Position numbers and translations under genes: made by a program. A DNA stretch of 64,000 nt from a virus, in the IMG/VR virus record IMGVR_UViG_3300020391_000290, positions 1 through 64,000 of that record, one strand, 5' to 3'. The notes beneath the pieces are model-generated. The model was not told where the DNA came from and did no database searches. It saw only the letters and a program-made list of their open reading frames with translations. Positions 21,589-60,200 of the stretch are shown piece by piece; within the stretch, counting starts at the first letter, position 1, and each line of letters begins with the position of its first letter.

Positions 21589-22023
21589 TTAACCGTTTGG
21601 TACGGATACACTTACATTTAAGACTGGGCCTGATGCAACAAGTAATGCTTTATCACCTACTGAAAATTGCGAGCCTGTTCCTAATGCTCCAACATGAAAA
21701 TGACGTCCTGTAATTTTACTTGCGAAGTATGTACCACCTGCACTATCTGTGCCTGTAATTTGACACTCGCCTGCTACAATTGATCCATGTACTTTTGCAG
21801 TTAGTGTAAGTGTCTGTGTTCCGCCTGCAGTTGTGCAACGAAAACGTTTTGTGCCTTTTTGGATAACAACAGTTGTATCCTGGGCACTTGCACTATCTAC
21901 AAAACCTTTCATAATTATTTGATTGCCACCTAAACCACTTGCTCCAATTGGAAGTGTGGTACCAGATGCGGCTACTTTTGATGTTCCGCCTACTGTTTCG
22001 GCGCTTTTAATCGGTCTTCCCAT
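21589..22023 (-). CDS. Virion structural protein (MGRP- start), possible capsid decoration protein
   Basis: Strong AAGGAG SD, late promoter at 22108-22103, downstream of the MCP on the same strand. Confidence 0.6.
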   Translation of the reverse strand: MGRPIKSAETVGGTSKVAASGTTLPIGASGLGGNQIIMKGFVDSASAQDTTVVIQKGTKRFRCTTAGGTQTLTLTAKVHGSIVAGECQITGTDSAGGTYFASKITGRHFHVGALGTGSQFSVGDKALLVASGPVLNVSVSVPNG

Positions 22024-22128
22024 TTGTTTTCTCCTTTATGAGTTTTAGACGTTCTAGGTCTACGGGGTTGGTTTTCCCCATAAGCATTTTAAAATGCATA
22101 AGTATTTATTCGAAAGGAAAATCTAAAA

Positions 22129-29532: not shown

Positions 29533-31422
29533 TTATTGCATATATTGCTTTATAGTGTCTATAAGGCTACCACTACCTCGTTTAGTAGCCGCTATAAGTT
29601 CATCTAGTTTGTTCATTAGTGCTTGATTACGTTGATCTAAAATGTTCGTTGGTTGATTATTTGTAGTAACTAAATTGTTTGCAGGATTTCCAGGTGAATT
29701 AGCCTGATTATCAGCCGGGGGTGCAAAGTCACTAAATTGTGAATCGAGCTCTGAATTGTACCCACCTACTCTAGTCTGCCCTGGAGTTATACCTAAAGTT
29801 CTAGCAAAAGTAATTACACCTGTATTTAAACCACTTGTAATATCTGAAATAAACGACACAATACCATTACTATTCCTAAGCATTTCTGTTGTTAATTTAC
29901 TTAATGACATTCCAAGTTTTCTATTTTCATCTTGCAAGCCTATTAATGCTTTAGTGGCAGCATTTTGTCCAGTTTGTAGTTTTTTAAAATCATCTACAAC
30001 ATCATTTACAGTTTGATTAATACTTTTTGCCATTACTTGCTGACTCATTAAAAAACTATTCTCTGTAACCTTAACAAATTCATTGGTGGTAAATCTGCCA
30101 GTCGTTGCAATTAAATCTGCATTATTTAAAAAATCTTGTTGAATAGCTCTATTGTTATCGGCAAATCTTTTGAATGCCATTGCAGTGCCTTCGGAGTCAC
30201 CTCCTGCTTTTATGCCTTTAACAGTATCTACTATTCCTTGAGTTAGGGTCGGTAAACTAGCACTAAGCATCGCAGCATCTTTACTTGTTATATTACCAAA
30301 TGTTGTTATGTCTAGTATCGTACTTCTCATTTCAGGAAACGCACTAATTAAACGTTCAATCTCTTGTCGTTGTTGTGGGCCTAATCTAGCTAAAGCAGCC
30401 TGTACTTGTGCATCTTTACGTTGAGCACGTTCAGCTTGTTTTTGTTGTTCTATACTTCTACCTGTTAGTACTGCAACAGTTTTTTGTTGTCTTACTTGGT
30501 TTGCTGTTGCTTCAGCAAGTGCTTGTGTTTGAATTGCAGTATTATCTATCGCTATACCGGACATAGCAAAATTCTGCATAATTTCAGCAGTAGCCTGACC
30601 TAAATCTTCGAAACTAAAACCTAATGTTCTTAATTCTACGCCGTGTAGTCGATTAAGTGCCATATTTGCACGAGCAAATTCTCTTGCACCTCTGTTTGTT
30701 TGTCCACCAAAACTAGCCATTGCTTCGCCATTTTGTTTGAATATATTAGTAAATTCTGCCATTGTTAAATTTGCATTGTGTGCATTATTTCTAAAATCTA
30801 CTAAACTACCACCTAACAATGCACCACTTTTTTGTACTTCTAAAAATGAACCACTGGCTGCATTTAGTTTTTCAAATAAAAATCCTGCGACTGCTCCTGC
30901 TATAGGCACTGCAGCTTCAGTCAATGCACCACCTGCCAATCCTAAAGCAGCACCTAGCGATTTGCTAAATCCTGCCATATCAGCAATAGCAGTGCCTAAC
31001 AGACCACCTACTGCGGCACTAACAAGTTTACTTCCTGTTGCGAGTTTTGTAAATGTTTCTGTAACAGTTTGTGCAAGTGCAAATGGTTTACTTTGTAAGT
31101 CACTAAAACTACTAGATAGTGCACCTGCAGATCTTCTTAAATCTCTACTAAAAATAGCACTTGCAGTATTTGCACTATTCAATCCTGCGGCTAATGTTTG
31201 ACCGCCTTGCTTTGTTTGGTCTGCAGTCTTATCAACTGTTCTTCCAAATCCAAAAATACCACCGGTTGCAGCTTTAGAAGCGGCTGCTAAATCCCGTTGA
31301 GCATCAGCACTGTTAATATTATCAGCTGATGCAAGTACCGCAAGTATACGTTGCATAGTCTGCTCTTCAGCAAATCCATCTGCAAATACTTCGCCTATGC
31401 CCGGAACATTAATTTGTGGCAA
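29533..31422 (-). CDS. Tail tape measure-like protein (probable TTG start at 31422)
   Basis: Helical A/G/Q-rich protein with hydrophobic segments; GGAGA SD before TTG; late promoter at 31473-31466. Confidence 0.7.
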   Translation of the reverse strand: MPQINVPGIGEVFADGFAEEQTMQRILAVLASADNINSADAQRDLAAASKAATGGIFGFGRTVDKTADQTKQGGQTLAAGLNSANTASAIFSRDLRRSAGALSSSFSDLQSKPFALAQTVTETFTKLATGSKLVSAAVGGLLGTAIADMAGFSKSLGAALGLAGGALTEAAVPIAGAVAGFLFEKLNAASGSFLEVQKSGALLGGSLVDFRNNAHNANLTMAEFTNIFKQNGEAMASFGGQTNRGAREFARANMALNRLHGVELRTLGFSFEDLGQATAEIMQNFAMSGIAIDNTAIQTQALAEATANQVRQQKTVAVLTGRSIEQQKQAERAQRKDAQVQAALARLGPQQRQEIERLISAFPEMRSTILDITTFGNITSKDAAMLSASLPTLTQGIVDTVKGIKAGGDSEGTAMAFKRFADNNRAIQQDFLNNADLIATTGRFTTNEFVKVTENSFLMSQQVMAKSINQTVNDVVDDFKKLQTGQNAATKALIGLQDENRKLGMSLSKLTTEMLRNSNGIVSFISDITSGLNTGVITFARTLGITPGQTRVGGYNSELDSQFSDFAPPADNQANSPGNPANNLVTTNNQPTNILDQRNQALMNKLDELIAATKRGSGSLIDTIKQYMQ

Positions 31423-31446
31423 GAAAAAATCTCCAATTATATGCGT

Positions 31447-31474
31447 ATATAAATACACATGTACATATTTATAT
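31447..31474. promoter_or_regulatory. Crossed pair of TATAAATA late promoters forming an inverted repeat
   Basis: ATATAAATA-CACATGTACA-TATTTATAT; canonical T4 gp55 consensus on both strands. Confidence 0.75.
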
Positions 31475-31495
31475 TGTATTTACCTGGAGAAAAAC

Positions 31496-32389
31496 ATGGT
31501 CGACGTACCTAAGAATTATTCAATGAGTCCGGAACAGATTGCACAAGCACAACAGAATCCGTTGCAAAAGTTTATGAGACAAGCATCAATTTATATTAAA
31601 TTACCTAGTCAAGGACAGTATTATCCACCCGGTACATTAGATTTGCCTGAAGCTAAAGAAATACCAGTGCTTCCGATGAGTACCAGAGACGAAATAACTG
31701 TTAATACTCCTGACGCACTTATGAATGGACAAGGCGTAGTAGACATGATACAAAGTTGTTGTCCTAATATTAAAAATGCATGGTTGGTGCCATTAGTAGA
31801 CTTAGATACAATATTGATAGGAATAAGAATTGCTAGTTACGGCGAAAAAATGGAATATACAAGTACTTGTCCAAAATGCGAAAACGCAGACAATTATGAA
31901 ATAGATCTTAGACAATTTATGGATATGCCTGTGGACATAAACGTTTACTCGCAACCTTTTGAATATAAAGGCATGCAAGTATTTGTACAACCTATAAGTT
32001 ATGATACTCTAAATAAACAAAATTTAGAAAATTTCGAGCAACAACGACTAATTACAATGATAAACGATGCAGAACTAAGTGCTGAAGAGAAGCAACGTAG
32101 ATTTGCGGAGATTTTTCAAACTATGACTAGTTACACTCTTGCAAATATTGTAGGTAGTATTAGTAAAATAGTAACTCCGGATGGTGTAGTAGTAGCAAAT
32201 GAGTCTCATATAAACGACTATGTAAGAAATTCAGAAAGACAGTTTTACGAAGCTCTTAAAAATTATTTAGAAGGAATAACTAAAGCAATTCCAGAGAAAA
32301 ATGTTTCTATAAAATGTGCAGAATGCTCTAACGATTATACAACTCCTTTTACGTTTGATCAATCAAATTTTTTCGCATTCGCCTCTTAG
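31496..32389 (+). CDS. Baseplate hub/tail assembly chaperone (T4 gp26-like); start at ATG 31496
   Basis: IKLPSQGQYY, PMSTRDE, DLDTILIGIRIASYGE, two CxxC pairs; GGAGA SD. Confidence 0.8.
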   Translation: MVDVPKNYSMSPEQIAQAQQNPLQKFMRQASIYIKLPSQGQYYPPGTLDLPEAKEIPVLPMSTRDEITVNTPDALMNGQGVVDMIQSCCPNIKNAWLVPLVDLDTILIGIRIASYGEKMEYTSTCPKCENADNYEIDLRQFMDMPVDINVYSQPFEYKGMQVFVQPISYDTLNKQNLENFEQQRLITMINDAELSAEEKQRRFAEIFQTMTSYTLANIVGSISKIVTPDGVVVANESHINDYVRNSERQFYEALKNYLEGITKAIPEKNVSIKCAECSNDYTTPFTFDQSNFFAFAS

Positions 32390-32604
32390 CATTATCTAAT
32401 CCTGAGATTGAGAGGCTTTTACAAGGATACGAAAAAACAGTGAACGAACTGCGTCTTAACATGACTAAGATTGCTTGGTTTATGAGAGGAGGAGTGACTA
32501 TGTCCGAACTTCTAGACATGCCACAATCTGAATACAAACACTTTAACACAGTTATTCAAGAAAATTTAGAACTTAGTAAAGCTGCGAAACAAGTAATAGT
32601 TTAG
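32368..32604 (+). CDS. gp51/GT-like extension in the -1 frame of the gp26-like gene (not in ORF track)
   Basis: Open -1 frame FFRIRLLALSNPEIERLL...IAWFMRGGVTMSELLDMP...KQVIV* starting at the slippery T TTT TTC. Confidence 0.7.
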   Translation, partial: FFRIRLLALSNPEIERLLQGYEKTVNELRLNMTKIAWFMRGGVTMSELLDMPQSEYKHFNTVIQENLELSKAAKQVIV

Positions 32605-32975
32605 GAATGAACTACGTTCATTCGTTCTTTTCACTTCGTTCAATCACTTTTTTTGAGTGAAACGAAACAGCTATCATCTCGAAGTTAAGCTCATACTTCA
32701 CCCGTTGCCGGGTGTAGTAATAAATGAAATCGCCATCATCTGCGTGTATCACTCATCTGTTATAAGAAGATTACATTTCTGTACGGAGGCGGAAACCCGT
32801 GGACCCCCTACTTCAGCCTTCACTGATAGTCTCGGAACCTTAACGCATCATAACAGCAATGCGTTTCTAGTTGAGGTTGTATCTTTTCACAGAGCCTCAT
32901 CTTTTGTGCCTAAAGTTGGTTTTACTCGTGTTAACGACGGTTTAATGCGTAGACCGTAAACGCCAAATTTTTATT
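32605..32975 (-). ncRNA. Candidate large structured RNA (pseudoknot, GNRA hairpins)
   Basis: GC-rich, multiple stems, GCAA and GAAA tetraloops, 9-bp loop pairing with G-U valid on the minus strand. Confidence 0.55.
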
Positions 32976-32988
32976 ATTGTAACACTAT

Positions 32989-33411
32989 CTAGCCATTTAA
33001 TTGTTTATTGATTATGCCCTTTTGGTGTACTCTTACTCTAATGTGCCCGTTGTACCAGTCATCTGATTCTAGTACTTTATATCTAAATTGTTCTCTTGCT
33101 TCTACGTACGATAGTTCTGCTTTACTAGAACAGAAATATAATATCTTACGTTTGAATTTATCTTTGCCTAATGTTTCGACGTCTTCTGCTAATTCGTCTG
33201 ATGAGCCATAGTAGTCACGCCAATCACTTTCTACTAATGAACGACGTTTATTTTTTCTGCCTTTAAGGGGAGGTTTAGTTTTTTTAAACTGTGCCAGTTT
33301 TTTGCCAATGTATTTTCTATTGTTTGTTGTGTTTGTAATTAGATATACAAACCCAATTATTCCTTCTGGTATTTCTTTGACTATTTTGTTCTTGTAATAC
33401 CAGTTTTCCAT
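32989..33411 (-). CDS. Minimal GIY-YIG endonuclease (start at ATG 33411)
   Basis: GFVYLITNTTNNRKYIGKK, WRDYYGSS, conserved E (YVEAREQ) and WYN; 140 aa. Confidence 0.85.
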   Translation of the reverse strand: MENWYYKNKIVKEIPEGIIGFVYLITNTTNNRKYIGKKLAQFKKTKPPLKGRKNKRRSLVESDWRDYYGSSDELAEDVETLGKDKFKRKILYFCSSKAELSYVEAREQFRYKVLESDDWYNGHIRVRVHQKGIINKQLNG

Positions 33412-33433
33412 GTTATATTGTATATATCTTTTA

Positions 33434-33607
33434 TTACATACTATTCTTTTTTTCTTGAATCTCGGCACGTCTTGCCTTAGCGAGTTTTTGTATTTCACCT
33501 AATGCTTTTCTTGCTCTTGCGGCTGCGGCTTTAATTCCTTTAGTTTCAAATGCTTCTGATTCTTTTAAGTATGCTTCGTATGCAGTAATTATTTGTTCGT
33601 GTGACAT
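33434..33607 (-). CDS. Small basic histone H1-like (Hc1-type) DNA-binding protein (not in ORF track)
   Basis: 57 aa MSHEQIITAYEAYLKESEAFETKGIKAAAARARKALGEIQKLAKARRAEIQEKKNSM; AAGGAG SD. Confidence 0.75.
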   Translation of the reverse strand: MSHEQIITAYEAYLKESEAFETKGIKAAAARARKALGEIQKLAKARRAEIQEKKNSM

Positions 33608-33617
33608 TGTAGTCTCC

Positions 33618-34649
33618 TTACCATTCTGTTACATGATGCTTATCATGTAGTTTTGCTTTTATACATTTTGTTTTGCACTCTATGTTGTCAAATTTTTTAA
33701 ATTCATTATTCCAAAAACTATCTTTTATTATATTATCGATTGTAGTATTATGCAAATTAAATTTTGTTTGTGCTAAAGAAATCATATTTTTATTATGTGG
33801 ATACCTATTAGCAGTCCAACAACAAGGATAAAATTCTCCTGTGGCTTTTAAGAATACTCCTTTATTACCTATGTAACAAAGTGCAGGGTATTCATTATTC
33901 TTATTTAATTCTAAAGCACGTTCTAAGAATATTTTTTTAAGATCTTCGCCGGGTCTAGTTTTAGTGCTAATTTTATATTGTTGTCTTTCAAATCTATGAC
34001 CTTTAGCAATAAGAAATTTATTTGTAGGTTCTAACAAATCGTTGTTGCTATATGCATCTGGGTAAGTACTTCCAAATTTTGTACTTTTAGTAAGTTGCCA
34101 ACAATCAAAATTGTTATTAATTGCAATATTGTTAATATCTTGTAAATTATTTTCGTTAAATCTAAATGCTATAGTGGCTACTACAGTATATGTTATTTTA
34201 TTATGTTCTCGGAAAGTTACTATACCTAGCATAATACTTTTCCAATCGCAGTTTACACGATATTTACTGTTACTTTCCTGATCCCACCCATCTAAACTCC
34301 AGTGTACTTCGTCATGTTCATTTAGTAACATTGCTAATTTTTGCCACCAATCCGCTTTTTTGTAACTACCATTGGTAATTATTAGCAGTTGCAATTGAGG
34401 ATTAATTTCTTTTATCCAATGTACAATTTGTAAAAAATCTTTTGCATATATTGGATCACCGTCATCGCCACAAAAACTAATTTTACGTATCTTTTTTATA
34501 TGCGATTCGCCTATCTGTGTACGGAAAAAATCTAATGTAAGTTGGCGATTAAGGAGTGTTTCTGGCATTTCGACTCTGGTGCATCTAGGACATTTTAATG
34601 TACATATGCTACTTACTTCTATATGCCAATGGTCTAATGCTAGTTTCAT
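33618..34649 (-). CDS. Radical SAM protein with C-terminal SPASM/Twitch-like Cys
   Basis: CTLKCPRC motif, FCGDDGDP, ITNGS, SLDG, FYPCCW...CKTKC. Confidence 0.88.
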   Translation of the reverse strand: MKLALDHWHIEVSSICTLKCPRCTRVEMPETLLNRQLTLDFFRTQIGESHIKKIRKISFCGDDGDPIYAKDFLQIVHWIKEINPQLQLLIITNGSYKKADWWQKLAMLLNEHDEVHWSLDGWDQESNSKYRVNCDWKSIMLGIVTFREHNKITYTVVATIAFRFNENNLQDINNIAINNNFDCWQLTKSTKFGSTYPDAYSNNDLLEPTNKFLIAKGHRFERQQYKISTKTRPGEDLKKIFLERALELNKNNEYPALCYIGNKGVFLKATGEFYPCCWTANRYPHNKNMISLAQTKFNLHNTTIDNIIKDSFWNNEFKKFDNIECKTKCIKAKLHDKHHVTEW

Positions 34650-50600: not shown

Positions 50601-51262
50601 GTGATCAATTTGGTTCTTTAGAACAATATAAAAGTGTTAGTGATACAATTATTTTTAATGGAATAACTTACAGACCTTTGTTTGGTGATAAAGCAGATGA
50701 AGAATTACAAGCAACATTTAAAGTAGTAAAAAATGATAGTACACTTATAAGTGAAACTGAAATAAAAGAAAAAGTTATATCTTCAATTAATGATTACTTT
50801 ACAGTTGATAATTGGGATTTTGGAGATGTTTTTTATTTTAGCGAACTTGCGGCTTATTTGTACAATACACTTGCTCCTGATGTGTTAAGTATTATAATTG
50901 TGCCTAAGTTAGCAACAAGTAATTTTGGTAGTTTGTTTCAAATACAAAGCCAGAGAGATGAAATTTTAATTAGTTCAGCTACTGTAAATGATGTAGAAGT
51001 AATTGATGTAATTACTGCAAATAGTCTACAATCTAGTGGAAATGTAGTCAATACTACTACAGTAAATTTAGCAAGTGAAAGTGTAAGTGCTAATGGTGCA
51101 ACAACAAGTGTCGCAACAGGTACAACGTCAACGTCTAGCACTAGTAGCAGTTATAGTAGTGGATCTAGTAGTTCAAGCAGTAGTAGTTCAAGCAGTAGTA
51201 GCTCTAGTAGCGGCGGCGGCGGCGGAAGCGGCGGTGGCGGAAGCGGAGGATATGGTTACTAA
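47648..51262 (+). CDS. gp6: Baseplate wedge protein (gp6-like)
   Basis: DFQSYDYETIR, ENFLETAQRRDSI and QDRMITGEDY; TAAATA at 47617-47622. Confidence 0.88.
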   Translation: MAASTRQANLFAAEDWKKVYETFREADFQSYDYETIRKSMVDYIRTYYPEDFNDFIESSEYIALIDMIAFLGQSLSFRADLNARENFLETAQRRDSILRLSRMLNYYPKRQQISRGLIKVTSVQTTEEVSDSNGNSLRDVEISWGDPTNSDFLEQFTTVINSAIVSTQKFGNPGLKTSIGGINIEEYQIRLNEGTIPVYDFKTSIGAQNLDFELVKGTYSGQDYLYEMAPQPSSTTNIIYRNDNRGFNSANNGFFFYFKQGSLQSADFTISEKLPNRTVELDVNNIDNNDVWLYKLDDQGNETIRWDKVPAISGNNVIYNSLSENNKNLFTVRSRADDQISLVFGDDVFSNIPVGDFRVYFRTGIGTTYKISPDDMQNLQIVIPYISQVNQVENLTVNLSLTTTIANASGRENLLDVKQKAQQQYYTQDRMITGEDYQILPYTKFSNIIKSKAINRTASGISRYLDVRDTTGKYSSTNIVAEDGIFYRTEDIQQFQFTFVTDSDISNIISTQVEKNILKNDSLHYYLKNYGGTDVTSLLAEWNLTTSSSGTCTGYFKNDVAAPLKIGSFTSSNLKYAKVGALLKFTAPSGKVFDVNNNLITGTSGTINTKDYIWASISAVVTDGTNQGVGNLESGLGPVTLTEVIPSDAVLNQVIAIWNTTLSSTVRNEIIQSIGDYKTFGLRYDLDTQEWAVISNANLNQANTFSLDAAGNTSSTGLDNSWFFKFTNDGSTYTVNYRSTAYIFESKLETRFYFDKNLSIFDPRTGKTIKDKINILKVNSLPDTIGSLAVDYSMQVDDVITETDGYILTNRIKVTFPDVDSDGVVDNPDVFDIIVAPSVSSSTKVVFYKTDTSSGGYLTYTPVDTTDIEQRYTTQSAINEVLAQFSSGQIFYASAEEKFYLLSVSGANVKSVAVTTNYIKQIGRNQLLFQYTHNSPNNRRIDPSPTNIVDLFLLTRQYDTDYRNYISDITGNISKPQDPTTNELRDQFGSLEQYKSVSDTIIFNGITYRPLFGDKADEELQATFKVVKNDSTLISETEIKEKVISSINDYFTVDNWDFGDVFYFSELAAYLYNTLAPDVLSIIIVPKLATSNFGSLFQIQSQRDEILISSATVNDVEVIDVITANSLQSSGNVVNTTTVNLASESVSANGATTSVATGTTSTSSTSSSYSSGSSSSSSSSSSSSSSSSGGGGGSGGGGSGGYGY
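51118..51259 (+). repeat. Low-complexity Ser/Gly tail (AGT/GGC repeats) at the end of gp6
   Basis: STSSTSSSYSSGSSSS...GGGGGSGGGGSGGYGY. Confidence 0.85.
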
Positions 51263-54200
51263 TGGCTTTACGTAAAAGTTCCGCATTATTACCTAGTATT
51301 TTTCAAACTTCAAAGAATTCGAAGTTTTTAAATGCAACAATGGATCAATTAATTAGTGAACCAAATCTACAACGTTTTAGTAGTTTTATAGGAAGAAAAT
51401 TTGCTCCTAATTTTACAGTAGGTAATGGCTATATTACTGAAACTAGTGCAGAACGACAAAATTATCAATTAGAACCTGCAGTAGTTTATAGTAATACATC
51501 TAAGCAAATTGAATCTTTATCAAGTTATACAGATTTTGTCAGTGCTTTATCATATAATAATGTAGATACAACTAATCACAGTGATTTATTTACACAAGAA
51601 TTTTATAATTATAGTGGCTTTGTTGATTTTGACAAATTTGTAAATTATGGTGAATACTTTTGGCTTCCGGCAGGACCTGATAGTGTCCAAGTATTTAATA
51701 GTGTTGTTGATACAGAAAAAACTTACACAGTATATACAAGCGGGACTGAATTTAAGTTTGATAGCATAACTGCAGATCCTAATAGAGCAGTAATACTTGC
51801 AAGAGGTGGTACGTACAAATTCACTCTCAATGAAACAGGAAATCCTTTTTGGATTCAAACAGAAATAGGAACTTCAGGGATAAGTGCATATAGTACGTCC
51901 ATTAGTACAAGGGAAGTTTTAGGAGTTACTAATAACGGTGCTACAAATGGAACTGTAACATTTACAGTGCCTATGGTAGATGCACAAAATGAACAGATAA
52001 ATGCAATACAGGCAGCAAATCCTGATTTTGCTACAGATTTAACATATAGCCAAATACATAATCAGCCTTATAAAACTTTTATAGATACACATGGTGGCAT
52101 AGATAAACAAACTGTTATAAATGGAAAAAGTCTTGTATTTGTAAACACAACTACTGCGGCAAGTGCTTGGGACCAAGGATCCAACTTTGATGCATATGGA
52201 TTTGATGATAATGATAATCCGTTTGACCAAACTACAACATTAGATATGTCTATAAGATATGACGTTTACAATATATCTATAGATACTATTGGTGGAGTAG
52301 AAACAATTGTCTTATCTAGAAGTATAGATTGGCCTATAGGACAAAAAGTTAAAATTAAACAAGGTGATGGATATGGAAATAGAGAATTTTTTAAAGGAGG
52401 AGATGGACTTCCTTTATTAATTAAACCTTATACTGCAGGAATAGATACTTTATATTATCAAGACGGTGTAAATGCTACACAGTTTGGAACTATAAAACTT
52501 GTTGAGATAGATCAAGTTAGTCCTATAGATGTTGAAAACGATATTTTAGAAAAACTTGTATATACAAGTGATAATGGAGTAACATTTACAAATGGATTAA
52601 AAATAGAATTTAATAGTGATGTTACACCTACAACATACGCAGGAAGAGAATATTTTGTTGAAGGGGTAGGACAACCACAAGGTATAAGTTTAACTCCAGT
52701 AGATGAATTATTGACACCTGAAAGTTATACTGTAAGCACTAGTGATGGATTTGATAGTGTAGCTTATGATACAGGTGGATGGGATGGCACATTAAATGCA
52801 CCAACTAGTCAAGATTATATTCTTATAAACCGTAATAGTCCAGATAGAAATGCTTGGAGTAGAGGAAATCGTTGGTTTCATAGACAAGTTATAGAGGCTA
52901 CTGCTGGTTACAATAATTATACTGCAGAGATAGATGATAGTGCAAGGGCAAAAAGACCTATAATTGAATTTAATACTGGACTTGAGTTATTTAATATGGG
53001 AATAACTTCCAAAGCTCCGGTAACTGTAGTAGATACAACACAAACAGACGCTTTTAGTAATGTAAATGGTTCTACAGGTTATTTTGCAGATGGTATTGAT
53101 ATTAAACAAGATAATACAATAATTTTTACTGCAGATTCTGCTATTAATAAAAATGTCTATCGTGTTGATATGGTAAATCAAGATAGTGATCTTACAACAA
53201 ACGAAATAATTAGTTTAGTATTAATAGATACTATATCCGATAAAGATTGTGTATTAAGCACATTAGGTGCAACTAATCAAGGAAAACAGTATTGGTTAGA
53301 TGAAGACACATGGAAAACTGGTCAACAGAAAACAAAGTTAAATCAAGACCCATTATTCAATGTACAAGATCCAGAGCATGTGAGTTTTAGCGATACAACA
53401 AAATATCCTAGTAGTAATTTCATAGGTAGTAAATTGTTTTCTTATAAAAGAAACAATAATAATGCATTAGATACTATATTAGGATTTGGTTTAAGTTATC
53501 AAAATTTTAGTACTTTAGGCGATATAGTTTTTGAAAATAATTTTGACACAGACACATTTCAATATACAAAGAGTACAGGAAACACAAATGTAATTGTACG
53601 TAGTGGACACGTACATCAATGGAATCAAAAAGGTGTTAGGACATTAGATAATGGTTGGACAAAGGTTCTTGAAAATAGTAATCAATATCAAATTGTTATA
53701 CATGAAGTGGCAGAATCTGAATTATATAGCTATGAGATAGGTGCAAGTGTAGACACTACAAAAACAATTCAGCCTTTACAAGTATTTGTAAATAGTAAAT
53801 TTATTGCACCTAGTAAGTATACACATTTAATACAAAATGATAGAGAGTATGTAAGTTTTACAGATAAACTTTCAGTAGATGACGTAGTAACAATTAAATT
53901 CTATAGTAACACAAAAGCAACAAACAGTTATTATGAAATACCTAGTAATTTAGAAAATAATGCAAGTAACGCAACATTTGATACATTAACACTAGGACAA
54001 GTTAGAAACCATGTAACTACTTTTTCCCAATACATAAAAACATTATCAGGTTCTTCGCCGGGTGCTAGTAATTTAAGAGATACAAATTACAAAGCATATC
54101 CAGGTGACATTATGCAACATAGTGCCGGAATGATTACCCCCATGTACGCTTTTACAAATTCAGAGGCAAATTTGTTAAAAAGTATAACATTTGTAAAAGA

Positions 54201-57200
54201 TGAATACACTAAGTTTAAAAATTCATTTATAGATAACATTAACAAATTAGACCTTGATTTAACAGACCCAAGTAAGTGTGTAGATGATATAATAAAAACT
54301 ATAGCAGGAAAAAAAACGAGTGCTTTGCCTTTTTATTATAGTGATATGCTACCGTGGGGAACGCAAAAAAGCCAAGTTGAACATATTGTTGATGATACAA
54401 GCGAAGTAGAATTTGAATTTACAACACAGTTTGATCTTACAACTTTATCTGCTAGAAGCGTATTAGTTTACAAAAATACTGAACTACTAATAGAAGGAAA
54501 AGATTATACATTAGATTCTATTGAAGCAAAAGTAAAGTTGACAACAAATAGTGTTAACACAAGTAACATAGGTCTAGTAGTAAATGATATAATTAAGATT
54601 GTTGAATATACTGATACAAATGGATCATTTTGTCCACCAACTCCTAGTAAACTTGGATTATATTACAAGTATGAGCCCAAAAAATATATGGATAATACAT
54701 ATGCAAATTCTAAAACTGTAGTGCAAGGACATGACGGAAGTATATGGGTAGGATATGGCGATATACGTGATGACATTATATTAGAATTTGAAAAACGTGT
54801 TTACAATAATATTAAAACACAATATGATACTAATTTATTTGATTATGCAGAGATACTGCCTGGATATTTTAGGAATACACTTGAAGAGTTCAATGAGGCA
54901 AATAATATTACAAGAAGTTATTTTGGCGAGTGGGCATTAAAAAATAAAGTGTTAGTGCAGAAAAATACAATATCAACAGATGAAGACTTATTTTCTTGGA
55001 ATTACACCACAAGTGTAAATGTTTTAAACAATCAGCGTATTCCTGGATACTGGAGAGGTATCTATAGATGGTTTTTTGATACTGACACACCACATACTAC
55101 TCCTTGGGAGATGTTAGGACTTAGTGTAAAGCCTATATGGTGGAATAACCGTTATGGTGACGCACCTTACACCAGAGGTAATACAGTACTATGGGAAGAT
55201 TTGAGAGACGGAAAATTATATAGTGATGCTACAAGCAGTATATTCACTACTGTAGCAAACCGTAAACGTGCAAATCTAATGAGTATTATTCCTGTTGATG
55301 AGCAAGGATCTTTAAGAGCACCAGGTGAATTCCTTACGCAAGGTACTACAATTACTAACAATAAAAACTCTTGGGCATATAGTGATGGCAGTCCGGCAGA
55401 GACAGCATGGACTAGAAGTAGTGAATACCCTTTTGTGATTCAAATACTTGCGGCTAATATAAAACCTGCTAAGTATGGCTCATATATGTTTGATACTAAT
55501 TTATTAGAACGCAATGGACAATATGATCAAATTTTACAAAAATCAAAAAGTTATAGACCTACTATCCTTGATCTTAAAATGCATGGTACTATACTAAGTG
55601 ATGGAGAAATACAAAGAGCAGAAGGATATAATCAGTTTATAAGCGAGTATATTCGTAGTACAGGTTTCGGCATAAATGATACAATTGCAAAATTTAATAA
55701 TTTAGAACTTAATTTAAGTTATCCTGTGGCAGGATTTACAGACAAAAAATATCTTAAAGTGGTTGCAGAAAGTGTAACACCTAGTAGTCAAAGCGAAAAT
55801 ATTTTTATTCCAGATGAAGACATCAATATTTTTCTTAAAAAAAGTTTGCCTTTAGAAAGAATAGTATATAGTGGTGTACAAATTATTGTAAGAGATAACG
55901 GATACGAAATCCAAGGATATGATAGACAAAATCCTTTCTTTAAAATTATTCCAAGTGTATCAGCAAAAGATCCTTTACAACATACAGTAGGCGGAACAAC
56001 ATATTTTGAATATGAACAATATGAAAATATTATTGCAAATATTCCATATGGCACAATAATTGCAAATAGGCAACAAATTTTTGATTTCCTTGTAAGTTAT
56101 CAGCGTTATCTTTTAAGTAAAGGTTTTATATTTGATAGTATTACTAGTAGAGGTGATAAAAATGATTTTATTACAGGAGGTAAAGAATTTGCATTTTGGA
56201 CAGATCAAAATTGGGAAACAAATAGTGTAATTGTTTTAAGTCCTTGTAGTCAAACTTTAAAAATTAACAGAACACTAGCTACAGTAGATGATATAAGAAT
56301 TACAGGCAAGCCTAAAGATGCAAATGGAAGTATTATTAATCCTAAATTTTATGATGTAACTCGTATAGATAATTTTTTAGAAATACAAGTTGACAACGAA
56401 AATACACAATTGTATAGCTTACAATTAGATCCAATACAGTATGAACATGCATTAGTTTTTAGCAATAAAACAATTTTTAATGATATCATTTATCAGCCAG
56501 AACTTGGAAACAGACACTCAAGATTAAAATTAGTTGGATCAAGAAGTGGAGATTGGAACGGAACTTTACATGCTCCTGGATTCTTTTTAAATGAAAATAA
56601 AATTAACAACTGGCAGTCATATGTAGATTATAAAAAAGGTGATTTAGTAAATTTTCAAAATCAAACATATTCTGCAAAATATTCAATAGATGGTAGTAAT
56701 GTATTCCGATTTGATGATTGGAATACTATTAATAATATGCAAACAGGTCTTGTCAAGAATCTTACTAACAAAGCTAGTCAGTTTAAAGATTTTTTTGAAT
56801 TAGATAATCTTAATTTAGAAGATGGTGTTGATAAGTTAGGTAAAGGAATGATTGGCTTTAATCAGAAAGATTACCTACAAGGGTTAGGATTAGATGACGT
56901 CAGCCAAGTAAAATTTTATCAAGGTATGGTAAAACAAAAAGGTACTAGTAGTGCAATTAATAAACTGATTGACGCTGAACTTACAAATTTAGATCAAACC
57001 ATTAATTATTTTGAAGAATGGGCATTTAGAGTAGGTGAGTATGGAAGCATTGATAGTAATCAAATTGTGGAAACAATAATACCTGAAGAAAATGCAACTA
57101 ATAACCCTACTGTAATACATTTTCATGCAGATGGTGAATTACCTACTGATACTGATAATGATCATTATCACGTGCAAAGAAAAGATTTATATAGAGTTCC

Positions 57201-60200
57201 AAATAACTATAATGGTGATTTATTTGCTAGTAGAGATGTTAACACAGTAAAAACAAATGATTTAGATACTGCAGGTTATGCACGACTAGATGATGTAGAT
57301 TTTACTTTGTTTGATGCTAACGACTTGACTAGTTTAAGCTCTAACATACAAGCACTAGGTAAAGGCAAAAAGATTTGGATTGCAAAAGATACTACTAATA
57401 CATGGAGTATTAGGCGTGTAGATGAAACTTTAAGTACTGTAACAAAAATACAAAGTACAGGAAATGGTTACTTAATATATACTACAGATATAAATCACGG
57501 ACTTGTAAAAGATGATTACGTAGTAGTAAGAGCACAACAACCTATTGGAAAAGTTGCTAAGATTTTTGAAGTATCTAGCCCTAATTCGTTTACTTTAGCT
57601 GATACTACAACAGAAGCAGAAATAACAAATGTTAATATTCCTATGTACAAACTTAGTAATGTTCGTTATACACAAGCAAGTGATATTAGCAAATTTACTC
57701 CAGTCAGTGGATGGGATAATAAGGAACTTGTATACGTTGATAAAGATCTCAACGGCAAATGGAATGTTTTACAAAACACAAGACCATGGACAACCACAGG
57801 AATAAAAACTACTGCAAGTGTAACTGCAGATGACAAATTAGGCAGTAGTATAAAAATAAATGCAAATAGTACTCTTGCTATAGCTGGCGCACCTGATCAA
57901 GGTTCCGGAGCAATAGTACCTTATGTACGTAGTGAAGGAGGTGCACTATTAGAAAGTAACAGTGTTATAGTCAGCACAATTGGAGATAGTGTTGATAGTT
58001 TTGGTGCATCCGTAGCAGTAGGAGTCGACTATGTTGCAGTAGGTGCACCTGATACAGAAAGTTCTAAAGGTGCAGTGTTCACATATTACGTTGATGCTAC
58101 TGGAACTTTTAATAGAAGACCTTCGATACGTCCTAATGCTTTAGGTTCTTCAGCAAAGTTCGGTACTAGTATAGCAATGAGTGGCAATGGCAGGTATCTC
58201 TTCGTAGGATCACCTGGTGATAATAAAATTTATTCTTACACACTTGTTACAATACCGACCTCTAGTATAGTTAGTCACACTATTACTAGTAATGGAGGAA
58301 CAAATTATTCAATAAATTTTACGCCTATTAGTCAAGAATCGTTAAGTTTAGTTGACGAAAATGGAAAAGTATATCTTCCAAATAAAGACTTTACATGGAA
58401 CGGTTCACAGATCGTGTTTGCTTCTGGTCCAAGTGCTAGTTTACAGATAGTTGTTAGACAATTAGATTATTTTGCTTTTAGTAGTATGTTAGATCCTTTT
58501 GATAGTATGTCAGGCGATGATTATGGTTTTTCAATCGATTGTGATTATTATGGCAGGAATGTTATTATTGGTGCACCAAATGCAGACGTTCCTAATAGCG
58601 ACAGTACAGTAATATCAAATGCTGGTGAAATAAGTGTCCAATCACAAGTAGTCCAACAATTTGCTGGTGATGGTATTACTAAAGCATTTACCACAATAGA
58701 AACTCTACAAACTAAAATATTTGTAGAGGTAGACGGTGTACTACAAACCGAAACTGATAACACAGATGTACCTGTAGAAAACGATGGTAGTAGTATAGGA
58801 TTTTATACACGCTCTGGCAAAACTATTACATTTAAATATATACCTTCCAGTGGTGCAAGAATTGTAGTATATACTGGCACATACATAGAAAAACAAAAAA
58901 TATATCAAAACATGACTGGACAAAGTCCTACTCTAAATGAACAATTTGGATATAGTGTTGCTATAGACAGTAACGGGACAACAATTGCAGTTGGTAGTCC
59001 AGGTGAAGACGAAACAAATCCAAACACAGGTAGTGTGTTTATATTTCAGGATAGTGGTAAAAATTATGGTTTAGTGACAACTAATACTCCACATAACCAA
59101 ACTGCCGGTGATACATTTTATATTGATAACAGATTAATTACAGTAACTGATAGTGCAGATAATCCAACTAATCTTGCAAGTGATATTAATAACGCAAATA
59201 TTCCTGGAGTCACTGCAAGTGTCAATCTTACTGGTGCAATAGAAATATTATCTACAAATACTGAACCATTAAACAAGTTAACAATTAATCCTGGCGGTGG
59301 ATCAATGTTTTTGCGTGACAATGTTTTTGAAATATTTAAATTTACACAAAAAATAAATCATCCACATGCAAAGCAAAATGAAAATTTTGGTAGGGCAGTA
59401 GTATTTGACAAATACTTAGATATTGGGTCTGGAAATTATGGTACTAGGAATCTTGTTATTAGTAGTGATAAAGCAAGTACAATATTAGGTATTGGTTTTG
59501 ATATAGAAAGTAATTCTAACAAAGCAAATTATTTACAATCTACAACAACGTTTGATAATGGCGGCACTACATTTACAGATAAAAGATCACAAAGCGGAGC
59601 CGCTTATGTATATGAATTATTAAGTGCAAACAGTGCTAGTATAACTAACTCAGATAAAATGGTTTTTGCACAACAACTTACAAGCACTAACATAGGTTTA
59701 TTAGATCAGTTTGGATTTGCAGTGGCTTTTAGTGATAAAAGGATTTTAGTTGGTAGTCCACAAGATGATATAGTTAAAGGATCAACAACAATTACAAATA
59801 GCGGAAGTGTATATGAATTTAATAATAATTTAAGGACAAAGAGTTGGTCAATATTACGTAACGAAAGTGATAGAGTAGATGTAACTCAAATAAATCGTGT
59901 TGCTTTATATAATAAAAAATCTAATAACATTGATGTCTTTTTGGATTATATTGATCCAGCTAAAGGTAAAGTAGCAGGTGTTGCACAAAGTGAACTAGAT
60001 TATGTAAGTAGTCAAGATCCTGCATTATATGAAAAAAATCTTTGGAGCTACAAGTATAAAAATAGATTATGGTGGGATACTAGCACTGTTCATTTCTTAA
60101 ATGTTGAGCAAGGTGATTTAGATTATCGTAAAAATTATTGGGGTACTATGTTTCCGGGTAGTACAATTGATATTTGTGAATGGATAGAAAGTAATGTTCC

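What the first reader, a model, noticed from the sequence alone, without database searches (positions are those of the whole stretch)
32605..33411. ~370-nt pseudoknotted non-coding element directly downstream of a minimal GIY-YIG nuclease
Seen: this is the longest intergenic region in the window, is GC-rich, and is full of stems. On the minus strand these include CACCCG-GCAA-CGGGUG and UACA-GAAA-UGUA (both GNRA tetraloops), GGGGG/CCUCC enclosing CGG-GUUU-CCG, UGAGG/CCUCA and AACGCAU/AUGCGUU. The loop of the last stem, CUGUUAUGA (32856-32848), can pair with UUAUAACAG (32765-32757) as a 9-bp pseudoknot whose G-U pair works only on the minus strand. AGAUGA occurs four times, and CUAUCA/UGAUAG can pair at long range. 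One stem near 32937-32957 fits the plus strand better. The element starts right after the stop of a 140-aa GIY-YIG protein with no obvious separate DNA-binding domain. Inference: a nuclease-associated RNA (by analogy to the HEARO/omega RNA plus IscB layout), a ribozyme, or an R-loop-forming replication origin at this strand switch.
Basis: partly seen in the sequence, partly recalled or inferred. Interest (0 to 1): 0.85.

Follow-up and report, generated by a model that had tools for sequence, protein, structure and literature searches.

The report
New structured RNA in jumbo phages
The stretch is a gene for a roughly 390-base folded, doubly knotted non-coding RNA that belongs to an apparently undescribed RNA family shared by marine and enterobacterial giant phages, and the small nuclease gene beside it looks like a neighbour rather than its partner.

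Summary
Window 32605-32994 (minus strand) encodes a ~390-nt structured RNA. In 69 unique relatives, 40 proposed pairs are 92.3% paired; 28 show changes on both sides; 0 of 500 shuffles reach this. I found a second pseudoknot: the 4 nt after an invariant UUCCG pair with the P8 tetraloop (99.1% paired).

Rfam 15 has no match. Five literature searches found no description.

The HEARO-like reading is not supported:
- The upstream gene is always a nuclease (66 of 66 loci), but of different folds and orientations.
- Some lineages give the RNA its own sigma-70-like promoter.
- Cultured relatives carry homologous copies, 3 in Klebsiella phage RaK2 and 4 in E. coli phage 121Q, mostly without a directly adjacent nuclease gene.
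- One 121Q copy sits at the same syntenic spot, next to an EndoVII gene.

Function is unknown. My best guess is a trans-acting RNA made early in infection, with two co-varying loop sequences that set its specificity. It is a new RNA class that can be tested in culturable phages.

The parts
32605..32994 (-). Whole RNA as delimited here (about 390 nt), from the conserved 5' box to the terminal hairpin
   Evidence: Conserved at 70-91% nucleotide identity in related contigs. Boundaries come from conservation in alignment A2. Metatranscriptome contigs cover 32558-33409.
32986..32994 (-). 5' box GGCUAGAUA (consensus GGCUA[U/G]AUA), directly before the first helix. It overlaps the GIY-YIG stop codon.
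   Evidence: Found 256-336 nt upstream of P10 in relatives, including those with an inverted nuclease gene. Not enriched elsewhere in the window: 18 matches against 28 expected. Its role is unknown.
32928..32985 (-). 5' domain: helix Pa (32985-32980 with 32933-32928) enclosing an inner hairpin
   Evidence: Pa pairs covary: UA/CG, GC/CG/AU, CG/UA (columns 13-17 with 66-70).
32873..32898 (-). P4/P5 hairpin: GAGG...CCUC with an A-rich apical part (GGCUCUG.GAAAAAG..CAACC)
   Evidence: helix 1: 100% paired, 2 of 4 pairs with changes on both sides. GGC and CAACC are invariant.
32836..32872 (-). P6 hairpin. Its loop (32856-32849) is the 5' strand of pseudoknot PK1.
   Evidence: helices 3 and 4: 94-95% paired, 9 of 10 pairs with changes on both sides.
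32829..32837 (-). Near-invariant UUCCG (CCG invariant) followed by 4 nt (AGAC) that form the 5' strand of pseudoknot PK2
   Evidence: helix 6: 99.1% paired, all 4 pairs change on both sides. Also kept in RaK2 and 121Q copies as UUGC/GCAA, UCAU/AUGA and CUGC/GCAG.
32785..32808 (-). P8 hairpin (GGGGG-UCCA-CGG-GUUU-CCG-CCUCC). Its tetraloop (32796-32793) is the 3' strand of PK2.
   Evidence: helices 7 and 8. Position 115/132 switches GC to AU in 11 sequences.
32772..32783 (-). H6 hairpin with a GNRA loop (UACA-GAAA-UGUA), of variable length in relatives
   Evidence: helices 9 and 10: 3 of 3 inner pairs covary. Large insertions occur here in L103, L122 and L153.
32757..32764 (-). 3' strand of PK1 (UAUAACAG)
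   Evidence: complementary variants in step with the P6 loop. helix 5: 82.8% paired on the raw MAFFT alignment, where some lineages are shifted by one column.
32718..32756 (-). Hairpin alpha with repeat R1 (AGAUGAUGGC, 32741-32732) in its apical part, followed by a U-rich run
   Evidence: My reading of the sequences: stem sequences change but pairing is kept.
32691..32717 (-). P10 hairpin (CACCCG-GCAA-CGGGUG) plus invariant AAGUAUGA
   Evidence: Invariant in 13 relatives that were found through neighbouring proteins, not through this motif. The loop is always GNRA. This motif was used as the search pattern.
32670..32679 (-). Repeat R2 (AGAUGAUAGC), a second copy of the lineage-specific R1 sequence
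   Evidence: The R1/R2 match within a molecule averages 9.9 nt, against 7.0 across lineages and 7.1 after shuffling.
32630..32668 (-). 3' hairpin with a variable A-rich loop
   Evidence: Covarying pairs at S7:133-157 and S7:129-161. Length varies.
32605..32623 (-). Terminal hairpin (GAAUGAAC-GUA-GUUCAUUC). It may also act as the + strand terminator of the baseplate operon.
   Evidence: Six covarying pairs, 96-99% paired. Flagged as a + strand terminator-like site. It stays with the RNA where other genes are inserted downstream.
32989..33411 (-). 140-aa SegE-type GIY-YIG nuclease gene, directly upstream. A neighbour, not shown to be part of the RNA's function.
   Evidence: PF19835, E 8.6e-36. 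phrog_447. 585 relatives in IMG/VR.

Best explanation
Window 32605-32994 (minus strand) is a gene for a free-standing structured non-coding RNA. It belongs to an apparently undescribed RNA family of Rak2-like jumbo phages.

Shown:
- The fold has a 5' helix domain, hairpins P4/5, P6 and P8, and a GNRA hairpin.
- There are two pseudoknots: the P6 loop with a downstream strand, and the 4 nt after UUCCG with the P8 tetraloop.
- An invariant GNRA-capped hairpin (P10) is followed by AAGUAUGA, and 3' hairpins follow.
- The family occurs at the same syntenic place (gp46 ... nuclease - RNA - small ORF - baseplate hub gp26) in marine phages and in E. coli phage 121Q. Extra copies exist in 121Q (4 in all) and RaK2 (3).

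Inferred:
- Host RNA polymerase transcribes it early, from its own sigma-70-like promoter in some lineages. In this window it is transcribed by read-through from the GIY-YIG gene.
- It acts in trans as a stable scaffold RNA. The conserved knotted core would bind a constant partner (a protein, RNA polymerase or a ligand). The two copies of a lineage-specific loop sequence (R1, R2) would set specificity, most simply by base-pairing with a target that changes from phage to phage.
- The GIY-YIG nuclease is a neighbour. It is either a homing endonuclease parked beside a conserved gene, or the local stand-in for the EndoVII-type structure-specific nuclease found at this place in 121Q and RaK2.

My odds: about 0.9 that this is an autonomous structured RNA gene not dependent on the GIY-YIG protein, and about 0.4 for the trans-acting, twin-loop mechanism.
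For: Conservation. The element keeps 70-91% nucleotide identity while the flanking baseplate protein falls to 58-82% amino-acid identity.

Covariation. 92.3% of 2280 cells are paired. 28 of 40 pairs change on both sides. 0 of 500 shuffles reach this. Slid controls give 42-47%. G-U pairs fit only the minus strand.

Not coding. Single-base indels separate close relatives. The longest open stretch ranges from 39 to 100 codons. The window's 100-aa + strand ORF is cut to 48 aa in a relative with 91% identical DNA.

Not a known family. No relevant Rfam match at the gathering score or at E up to 10. RF00028 gives nothing in the genome. No tRNA or tmRNA is found.

Independent of the nuclease.
- Of 66 distinct loci with at least 760 nt upstream, 55 have a GIY-YIG gene on the same strand, 4 have one inverted, 6 have PDDEXK_15 on the same strand and 1 has it inverted.
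- Both kinds occur beside RNAs that are at least 90% identical.
- A TTGACC-18-TATAGT promoter points at the RNA in L117.

Cultured homologues.
- Model R1 finds 3 full-length hits in RaK2 (26.2, 24.8 and 18 bits) and none in two control jumbo phages.
- The hits keep PK1 and PK2, which the model does not encode.
- blastn finds 58 cultured records and 106 places.
- 121Q has 4 copies, one between EndoVII and the small ORF plus baseplate hub.
- Promoter-like sites lie upstream of these copies.

Expression. Contigs from 4 metatranscriptome runs of 3 studies cover 32558-33409, and four of them bridge the GIY-YIG stop. This is weak evidence, because contigs show neither strand nor ends.

Twin loops.
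Against: - No function was tested, and no target of R1/R2 was found. The complement of the longer R1/R2 cores is absent from the loci. Only chance-level short matches occur in the 134 kb held of this genome, which is about 37% of it.
- In RaK2 all 3 copies, and in 121Q 3 of 4, lie between a promoter and co-oriented genes. Terminator-like hairpins inside the element were flagged by scan in one RaK2 copy and the syntenic 121Q copy and are my reading in the other two RaK2 copies. This layout also fits a cis-acting leader.
- A nuclease gene sits upstream in 66 of 66 marine loci, which is more constant than homing endonucleases usually are.
- Metatranscriptome contigs join the RNA to the GIY-YIG reading frame, so in this phage it may be only a 3' untranslated region.
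- The sequences are related, so the shuffle controls overstate significance.
- The structure was read from the window sequence, which favours it over the slid versions.
- Most relatives were fished with a motif inside P10, so P10's invariance in that set is by construction.
- R1's E-values are rough.
Confidence: 0.5

Rival explanations
1. The RNA is a cis-acting leader that governs the RNA polymerase transcribing it. It would work either as processive antitermination, in the manner of phage HK022 put RNA, or as a riboswitch-like attenuator. The knotted core would be the sensor or polymerase-binding part, and the internal hairpin plus U run would be the decision point.
For: - In RaK2 all 3 copies, and in 121Q 3 of 4, sit just after a sigma-70-like promoter and before co-oriented genes.
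- The three positions are the same in both phage genera.
- A terminator-like hairpin with a U run lies between the core and the P10-like hairpin. U-rich runs follow the R1 hairpin in several marine lineages (my reading).
- Some marine lineages have co-oriented genes inserted right after the RNA.
Against: - In this window, and at the syntenic copy of 121Q, the RNA runs head-on into the baseplate operon with no co-oriented gene downstream. Even so, this copy is conserved between marine and enteric phages.
- The part after the internal hairpin (P10, AAGUAUGA, 3' hairpins) is as conserved as the core, unlike a usual expression platform.
- The element is several times larger than put RNA (size recalled).
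Confidence: 0.25
2. The RNA is the partner of the adjacent minimal nuclease. A large scaffold RNA would supply target recognition through its variable R1/R2 loops to a catalytic-domain-only nuclease, by analogy with omega-RNA and IscB or TnpB.
For: - A nuclease gene is directly upstream in 66 of 66 marine loci.
- The 140-aa protein has no DNA-binding domain.
- The RNA combines a constant scaffold with a short lineage-specific sequence present twice.
- RNA-library contigs join the gene and the RNA.
Against: - Three unrelated nuclease folds (GIY-YIG, PDDEXK_15, EndoVII) occupy the place, in either orientation. This argues against a co-evolved ribonucleoprotein.
- Six of the 7 copies in RaK2 and 121Q have no directly adjacent nuclease gene, though HNH genes lie one or two genes away from two 121Q copies and one RaK2 copy.
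- Of the 80 best relatives of the protein, only 10 have the RNA downstream, and many of the others are followed by a plain hairpin.
- No target complementary to R1/R2 was found.
- There is no Rfam HEARO match.
Confidence: 0.07
3. The RNA is a ribozyme. For example, it might cut itself at the conserved 5' box to free itself from the upstream message, or it might be a remnant of a group I-like intron that once carried the endonuclease gene.
For: - The size, the two pseudoknots, the GNRA loops and many invariant unpaired nucleotides are typical of catalytic RNAs.
- A conserved box lies exactly at the 5' edge of the first helix, whether the RNA follows a gene or its own promoter.
- Endonuclease genes of several families sit beside it, as they do in introns.
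Against: - No match to RF00028 or to any ribozyme family.
- The flanks are not two halves of one gene, and the upstream gene differs between lineages (Hc1-like, a 214-aa protein, SbcC).
- The order of helices does not fit the P3-P7 core of group I. Here the P8 loop itself forms the pseudoknot.
Confidence: 0.08
4. The locus is a replication origin. The RNA would be a primer or R-loop-forming transcript, as in ColE1 RNA II or the phage T4 origins. R1/R2 and the upstream GGC[A/T] repeats would be protein-binding iterons.
For: - Direct repeats co-vary.
- An A/T-rich variable stretch lies in the 3' part.
- Repeated GGC[A/T] motifs about 10 nt apart precede the box in several lineages (my reading).
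Against: - Cumulative GC skew turns at about 40 kb and 89 kb, not at 32.8 kb.
- GNRA loops kept as GNRA, and loop-strand pseudoknots, point to a folded RNA rather than DNA sites.
- Four copies per genome in 121Q would be unusual for an origin.
Confidence: 0.05

Closest known systems
GOLLD and ROOL large ornate RNAs of phages and prophages (Rfam families; structures in PMC12286853, seen only as a search listing and abstract)
   Same: A large, highly structured non-coding RNA carried by phages. It was found by comparative analysis, has no known function, and shows many tertiary-type features (GNRA loops, pseudoknots).
   Different: No sequence or structure match to either family. It is smaller (about 390 nt here, roughly 600 nt or more in enteric phages). 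It occurs in up to 4 copies per genome. It sits at fixed places after early-type promoters rather than beside tRNA genes (the tRNA association of GOLLD and ROOL is recalled).
HEARO / omega-RNA with IscB, and the right-end RNA of TnpB
   Same: A structured, pseudoknotted RNA lies directly next to a small nuclease gene, and it contains a short variable segment.
   Different: The nuclease here is GIY-YIG, PDDEXK_15 or EndoVII, not RuvC/HNH. The link is not obligatory. No guide-target match was found. There is no Rfam hit.
Phage T4 segB, a GIY-YIG homing endonuclease inside the tRNA gene cluster (PMC2988022 and PMC13096335, both seen as search listing and abstract only)
   Same: A Seg-type GIY-YIG gene sits beside conserved non-coding RNA genes of a large myovirus. 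Highly conserved RNA genes make good landing sites for homing endonucleases.
   Different: The nuclease place here is filled in all 66 loci examined, and it is filled by three nuclease folds. In 121Q and RaK2 an EndoVII gene lies nearby at this locus, so in-place replacement of a resolvase-type nuclease is an equally good reading.
HK022 put RNA and lambda nut sites (recalled knowledge)
   Same: RNA elements placed just after early promoters, in more than one copy per phage genome. As with boxB in nutL and nutR, near-identical short sequences are repeated and differ between phages.
   Different: Put is about 70 nt with two stem-loops (recalled). This RNA is five to nine times larger and has two pseudoknots. 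The copy studied here has no downstream gene to antiterminate.
ncRNA001-004 of Pseudomonas jumbo phage PA5oct (PMC7318152; passages read)
   Same: These are unannotated RNAs of 236-619 nt in a Rak2-related jumbo phage. Two of them each make up roughly 1-5% of phage reads during infection, and their function is unknown.
   Different: Model R1 finds nothing in PA5oct at E up to 10. By eye, ncRNA002 shares only a GGUGAAG-AGUAUG-like stretch. Homology is not shown.

Membership tests
HEARO / omega-RNA type guide RNA of an RNA-guided nuclease | Match to the Rfam HEARO model or another known guide-RNA scaffold | tested here: not met
   cmscan of the window at the gathering score, and of 32300-33600 at E up to 10, gives no such hit.
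HEARO / omega-RNA type guide RNA of an RNA-guided nuclease | Obligatory linkage to one nuclease family (IscB or TnpB, RuvC-type) | tested here: not met
   The neighbours are GIY-YIG, PDDEXK_15 or EndoVII, in both orientations. Six of 7 RaK2 and 121Q copies lack a directly adjacent nuclease gene.
HEARO / omega-RNA type guide RNA of an RNA-guided nuclease | A variable guide segment complementary to a DNA target | tested here: inconclusive
   A lineage-specific 7-17-nt sequence is present twice. No complementary site was found in the loci or in the 134 kb of this genome. Only about 37% of the genome is held.
Group I intron carrying a homing endonuclease gene | Match to the group I core (P3-P7 pseudoknot, P4-P6, G-binding site) | tested here: not met
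   RF00028 has no match in the whole record at E up to 10. The helix order differs.
Group I intron carrying a homing endonuclease gene | Insertion within a host gene whose two exons flank it | tested here: not met
   The upstream gene varies between lineages (Hc1-like, a 214-aa protein, SbcC). Downstream lies the antisense of a convergent gene.
Free-standing Seg-type GIY-YIG homing endonuclease (the neighbouring gene) | SegE-type GIY-YIG catalytic domain | tested here: met
   PF19835, E 8.6e-36, residues 4-124 of 140.
Free-standing Seg-type GIY-YIG homing endonuclease (the neighbouring gene) | C-terminal DNA-binding module (NUMOD, IENR1 or helix-turn-helix) | tested here: not met
   None in the window protein. 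The 354-aa version in L123 does carry NUMOD3.
Free-standing Seg-type GIY-YIG homing endonuclease (the neighbouring gene) | Patchy presence among related genomes, and presence in many genomic contexts | tested here: inconclusive
   There are many contexts elsewhere: 585 relatives, and the RNA follows only 10 of the 80 best. At this locus, however, the place is filled in 66 of 66 cases, sometimes by PDDEXK_15.
Known large phage-associated RNAs (GOLLD, ROOL) and any other Rfam 15 family | Score at or above the family's gathering threshold | tested here: not met
   The only family reaching its threshold in the window is freshwater-2, at 22021-22096. The RaK2 loci have no relevant hit at E up to 1.
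tmRNA / tRNA-like RNA | Detected by ARAGORN or the Rfam tmRNA models | tested here: not met
   ARAGORN finds 0 genes in the window. No Rfam hit.
put-like cis-acting antiterminator RNA | Lies between an early promoter and co-oriented genes or terminators | tested here: inconclusive
   Met for 3 of 3 RaK2 copies and 3 of 4 121Q copies. Not met for the window copy or the syntenic 121Q copy.
put-like cis-acting antiterminator RNA | Makes the transcribing polymerase resistant to terminators | not testable with these tools
   Needs reporter or in vitro transcription assays.

The most novel reading that the evidence does not exclude
The RNA is a programmable scaffold. A constant, doubly knotted core presents two copies of a short lineage-specific sequence (R1, R2). 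These recognise a nucleic-acid target by base-pairing. They would either recruit whichever minimal nuclease is encoded next door (GIY-YIG, PDDEXK or EndoVII), so that the RNA supplies the specificity the 140-aa protein lacks, or act on their own against a competitor phage or a host transcript. That would be an RNA-guided system built on nuclease folds not known to use guides.
Probability: 0.08. Interest if true: 0.95.

Novelty: new variant of a known kind. Interest (0 to 1): 0.72.

Why it matters
Large, intricately folded RNAs of unknown function are rare, and past examples have led to new biology. This one has three useful properties:
- It is conserved from uncultured marine jumbo phages to E. 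coli, Klebsiella, Salmonella, Yersinia, Erwinia, Pectobacterium, Cronobacter and Xanthomonas phages (58 cultured records).
- It is present in up to four copies per genome at fixed places.
- It is left unannotated, or covered by doubtful small ORFs, in the records listed.

Because phages such as 121Q, PBECO4 and RaK2 grow in laboratory strains, its expression, partners and phenotype can be tested directly.

The work also corrects a tempting reading. A minimal nuclease beside a knotted RNA is not, on this evidence, a new RNA-guided nuclease.

Finally, it raises a separate question. Three different nuclease folds replace one another at one genomic place next to the gp46/gp47 recombination genes.

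Tried and rejected
- Single-sequence folding on both strands gave unremarkable z-scores, -1.4 and -1.8.

- blastn of 32400-33500 against cultured phages found nothing. Homologues appeared only with the covariance model, and then by blastn from the RaK2 copy.

- A group I reading was tried and dropped. I matched R/S-like motifs (CCGAGACUAUCA and GAUGAUAGC) by memory to the T4 td intron. The CUAUCA insert is absent in distant lineages, and RF00028 gives nothing.

- A P3-like helix (ACUUUAG with CUGAAGU), predicted by RNAalifold on 13 sequences, does not covary in the wider set. I left it out. The partner of the variable 7-mer after GAAG remains unknown.

- In the window lineage the P6 loop could also pair with R1, using four G-U pairs. 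This is not possible in other lineages, so I treat it as chance.

- The 5' box as a general phage promoter: it is not enriched in the window.

- An origin signal from GC skew: none.

- Targets of R1/R2 in the 134-kb record and in the loci: none beyond chance.

- EndoVII (PF02945) in five partial marine genomes: none found. Each is only 15-37% complete, so this says little.

- Model R1 with filters off on three loci gave only noise-level hits. The syntenic 121Q copy scored just 6.9 bits. Its homology rests on blastn to the RaK2 copies, on synteny and on the kept PK2/P8 motif.

- PA5oct ncRNAs: no model hit.

- Metatranscriptome contigs do not cover the flanking genes 32300-32557 and 33410-33500. 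A part without cover is no evidence, and I draw nothing from it.

- Five literature searches found no description of this RNA. The library lacks most subscription journals, and supplementary files were not opened, so a mention elsewhere cannot be excluded.

- No structure prediction, protein database search or complex prediction was run, because the question turned on the RNA.
Full report
WHAT IS THERE

The window is the first 64 kb of a 133,896-bp IMG/VR virus record that CheckV rates 37% complete.

Between 32605 and 32988 lies a 384-nt gap with raised GC: 0.40-0.455 against about 0.3-0.37 around it. Two sets of genes flank it.
- On the + strand: a baseplate-hub gene (31397-32389; PF12322 and phrog_150) and a small ORF (32440-32604).
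- On the minus strand: a 140-aa SegE-type GIY-YIG nuclease (33411-32989; PF19835, E 8.6e-36), a 57-aa Hc1-like protein, a radical-SAM protein, and SbcC- and SbcD-like recombination nucleases.

By the baseplate protein, the nearest cultured phages are the ~350-kb Rak2-like jumbo myoviruses, at 28-30% identity. That fits the 37% completeness estimate.

IS IT MORE THAN CHANCE?

One sequence alone says little. Folding z-scores are -1.4 on the minus strand and -1.8 on the plus strand. Relatives decide the matter.

Loci found through the two flanking proteins hold the element at 70-91% nucleotide identity, while the baseplate protein drops to 58-82% amino-acid identity. Close relatives differ by single-base indels. 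The window's 100-aa + strand ORF is cut to 48 aa in a relative whose DNA is 91% identical. No open frame is kept across the set. The region is therefore not coding.

I took a 21-letter motif from the most conserved hairpin and scanned two collections.
- IMG/VR gave 34 loci.
- JGI metagenomes gave 110 stretches, of which 80 were returned. One of these, L186, is a false positive in a GC-rich coding region.
- Of the 115 sources (the window plus 114 loci), 89 hold the full length, and 26 were dropped as cut.
- 70 full-length sequences are unique, or 69 without L186. They fall into 30 clusters at 90% identity.

THE FOLD

All coordinates here are on the minus strand. On a plain MAFFT alignment of the 154-nt core from the 69 sequences (58 distinct rows), I counted 40 pairs read from the window sequence.
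- 92.3% of 2280 cells are paired.
- 28 pairs have changes on both sides.
- 0 of 500 shuffles reach any of the five measures.
- Sliding the partners by 1-3 columns gives 42-47% paired.

Two caveats apply. The sequences are related, which inflates the shuffle test. The structure was read from one of the sequences, which favours it over the slid versions. The many double changes carry the weight of the argument.

The supported helices are:
- P4/5 (32898-32873);
- P6 (32872-32836);
- P8 (32808-32785);
- a GNRA hairpin, H6 (32783-32772).

Outside the core, my own mutual-information script supports:
- the 5' helix Pa (32985-32980 with 32933-32928);
- a 3' hairpin;
- the terminal hairpin (32623-32605).

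The P6 loop (32856-32849) pairs with 32764-32757, and more than ten complementary variants occur. Examples are CUGUUAU/AUAACAG, CUGAUAU/AUAUCAG, CUAGUAU/AUACUAG, CUUGGUA/UACCAAG, CUAGCGU/ACGCUAG, CUGGUAU/AUACCAG, AUAGUUA/UAACUAU and GUCAACUU/AAGUUGAU.

I found a second pseudoknot. The four bases after the near-invariant UUCCG motif (CCG invariant; the four bases are 32832-32829) pair with the whole tetraloop of P8 (32796-32793). The pairing is 99.1% kept, and all four pairs change on both sides. Examples are AGAC/GUUU, AGAC/GUCU, UUGG/CUAA, UUGG/CCAA, UUGA/UCAA, UAUC/GAUA and UUUA/UAAA.

Other points on the fold:
- G-U pairs fit only the minus strand.
- P10 (32717-32696) and the following AAGUAUGA are invariant even in the 13 relatives that were not fished with this motif.
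- The P10 loop is always GNRA.
- A conserved box, GGCUA[U/G]AUA, sits at the 5' edge of Pa. In the window it overlaps the nuclease's stop codon. It is not a general motif of this genome.

AN UNEXPLAINED FEATURE

A lineage-specific sequence of 7-17 nt occurs twice in each molecule. One copy lies in the apical part of the hairpin after the first pseudoknot (R1, 32741-32732). The other lies after AAGUAUGA (R2, 32679-32670). The two copies change together from lineage to lineage.

Examples are AGAUGAUGGC/AGAUGAUAGC here, UGCGAAUAGUA/UGCGAAUAGAA, GUAAGAUAUUC/GUAAGAUAAUC, and a 17-mer pair in L099. Allowing one mismatch, the match within a molecule averages 9.9 nt. Across lineages it averages 7.0 nt, and after shuffling 7.1 nt. 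66% of the within-molecule values exceed the 95th percentile of the cross-lineage values. No complementary partner was found. By eye, the same arrangement holds in RaK2 and 121Q, where a CAAG-containing motif flanks a P10-like hairpin on both sides.

RELATION TO THE NUCLEASE

Of 66 distinct loci with at least 760 nt upstream, all 66 have a nuclease gene directly upstream:

| Upstream nuclease | Orientation relative to the RNA | Loci |
|---|---|---|
| SegE-type GIY-YIG | same strand | 55 |
| SegE-type GIY-YIG | inverted | 4 |
| PDDEXK_15 | same strand | 6 |
| PDDEXK_15 | inverted | 1 |

Thirty-five further loci were too short to tell. One GIY-YIG version is 354 aa with a NUMOD3 motif. RNAs of the same 90% cluster have either GIY-YIG or PDDEXK_15 upstream.

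Where the nuclease gene is inverted, a TTGACC-18-TATAGT site points at the RNA. I read similar sites in L113 and L127.

The protein family is widespread: 585 relatives in IMG/VR. Of the 80 best loci, only 10 have the RNA downstream, and many of the others show a plain hairpin.

CULTURED RELATIVES

A covariance model of the core (R1, 154 positions, 28 pairs, no pseudoknots) finds three full-length hits in Klebsiella phage RaK2, at 26.2, 24.8 and 18 bits. It finds none in Vibrio phage 2.275.O or in PA5oct. The E-values are rough.

The hits keep features that the model does not encode:
- the second pseudoknot (UUGC/GCAA and CUGC/GCAG);
- in two copies, a 9-bp equivalent of the first pseudoknot (UUGAAUUGC/GCAAUUCAA).

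Each hit lies in an unannotated gap of 370-740 nt. Promoter-like sites precede two of them: TTGAAC-17-TATAAT and TTGAAC-18-TATAAT. For the third, the scan flagged a terminator just upstream and no promoter, and I read a weaker site by eye. Co-oriented genes follow all three.

blastn with the RaK2 copy finds 58 cultured records and 106 places. The hosts are Escherichia, Klebsiella, Salmonella, Yersinia, Erwinia, Pectobacterium, Cronobacter and Xanthomonas.

E. coli phage 121Q has four copies.
- Three sit at the same places as the RaK2 copies: before a methyltransferase/cytidyltransferase operon, before the rI.-1-like regulator, and after a sigma-factor gene.
- The fourth sits between an EndoVII gene and the small ORF plus baseplate hub, with gp46 beyond. 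This is the same place as in the window.

All six RaK2 and 121Q copies caught by my pattern show the motif CCG-N4-...-P8 with N4 complementary to the loop. The copy at 90 kb in 121Q switches to UCAU/AUGA and shares CUGAAGUAG with the marine RNAs. The seventh copy (RaK2 near 7 kb) shows CUGC/GCAG.

Rfam has nothing for these loci.

EXPRESSION

Logan contigs from four metatranscriptome runs of three studies lie on 32558-33409. Four of them bridge the nuclease stop at 32989. Contigs show neither strand nor ends, and RNA libraries can hold DNA, so this is only a hint. It suggests that the nuclease gene and the RNA are transcribed, possibly together.

HOW IT MOST LIKELY WORKS

Shown: this is a conserved, doubly knotted RNA family that is independent of any one nuclease.

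Inferred: host polymerase transcribes it early, and it acts as a stable RNA in trans.
- The copy studied here, and its 121Q counterpart, run head-on into a convergent operon with no gene to regulate downstream. Yet they have been kept since the marine and enteric lineages split.
- Extra copies would raise the dose.
- The constant core would bind a constant partner. The twin R1/R2 loops would give phage-specific recognition.
- I put this mechanism at about 0.4.

The main rival, at 0.25, is a cis-acting leader of the put or riboswitch kind. It is suggested by the position of six of the seven enteric copies and by an internal hairpin with a U run.

The nuclease itself has two readings.
- It could be a homing endonuclease beside a conserved gene, as segB sits among the T4 tRNA genes.
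- It could be an in-place replacement of the EndoVII-type nuclease found at this locus in 121Q, and nearby in RaK2.
- The second reading would explain the 66 of 66 occupancy. PHROGs labels the PDDEXK_15 proteins as RusA-like resolvase.
- I cannot decide between the two.

COMPARISON AND NOVELTY

No Rfam 15 family matches. Five full-text searches found no description. The PA5oct paper reports four unexplained ncRNAs in a related phage (passages read), but homology to this RNA is not shown.

I rate this a new class within a known kind: large structured phage RNAs of unknown function. The HEARO analogy fails its membership tests.

The finding matters because the family is present, unannotated, in well-known culturable phages.

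Noticed in passing
window 22021-22096 (-): This is the only Rfam family that reaches its gathering score in the window: freshwater-2 RNA (RF02980, 58.7 bits against a threshold of 49.9). It lies just upstream of the minus-strand ORF 21589-22023.
   Followed up: no
window 32370-32604 (+): The baseplate-hub ORF ends ...FFAFAS* just after a slippery-looking AAATTTTTTC. A conserved small ORF (...IAWYMRGG...) follows about 50 nt later. In L017 the small ORF is 69 aa and starts 3 nt after the hub's stop. This could be a programmed frameshift, or simply a mis-called start.
   Followed up: partly
window 51262-63999 (+): A single open frame of at least 4246 codons runs off the end of the window.
   Followed up: no
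window 33434-33607 (-) and 33618-34649 (-): A 57-aa protein matches the chlamydial histone H1-like Hc1 family (PF07432, E 2.2e-11). A radical-SAM protein with a weak, sub-threshold SPASM match sits between it and the SbcC-like gene. Both are present in only some relatives.
   Followed up: no
L114, L117, L113, L100, L126 upstream of the 5' box: Several lineages have runs of [A/U/C]GGC[A/U] motifs spaced about 10 nt apart, between the promoter or nuclease gene and the 5' box. Their meaning is unknown.
   Followed up: no
gp46-to-gp26 interval in the window, L108, L113, L123, and 121Q (L248): Three unrelated nuclease folds take turns at one genomic place beside the recombination genes: SegE-type GIY-YIG, PDDEXK_15 and EndoVII. 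EndoVII was not found in five partial marine genomes.
   Followed up: partly
L240 and L242 (RaK2 279.7-280.3 kb and 191.3-192.0 kb): Two RaK2 copies share a nearly identical 3' part of about 400 nt but have different 5' domains. This suggests a recent partial duplication or gene conversion between copies.
   Followed up: no
NC_027399.1, MT708547.1, the 121Q genes 516 and 168, and RaK2 ORF014w and ORF245: Small 'hypothetical protein' ORFs are annotated on top of the RNA copies in several cultured phage records. They are probably not genes.
   Followed up: no
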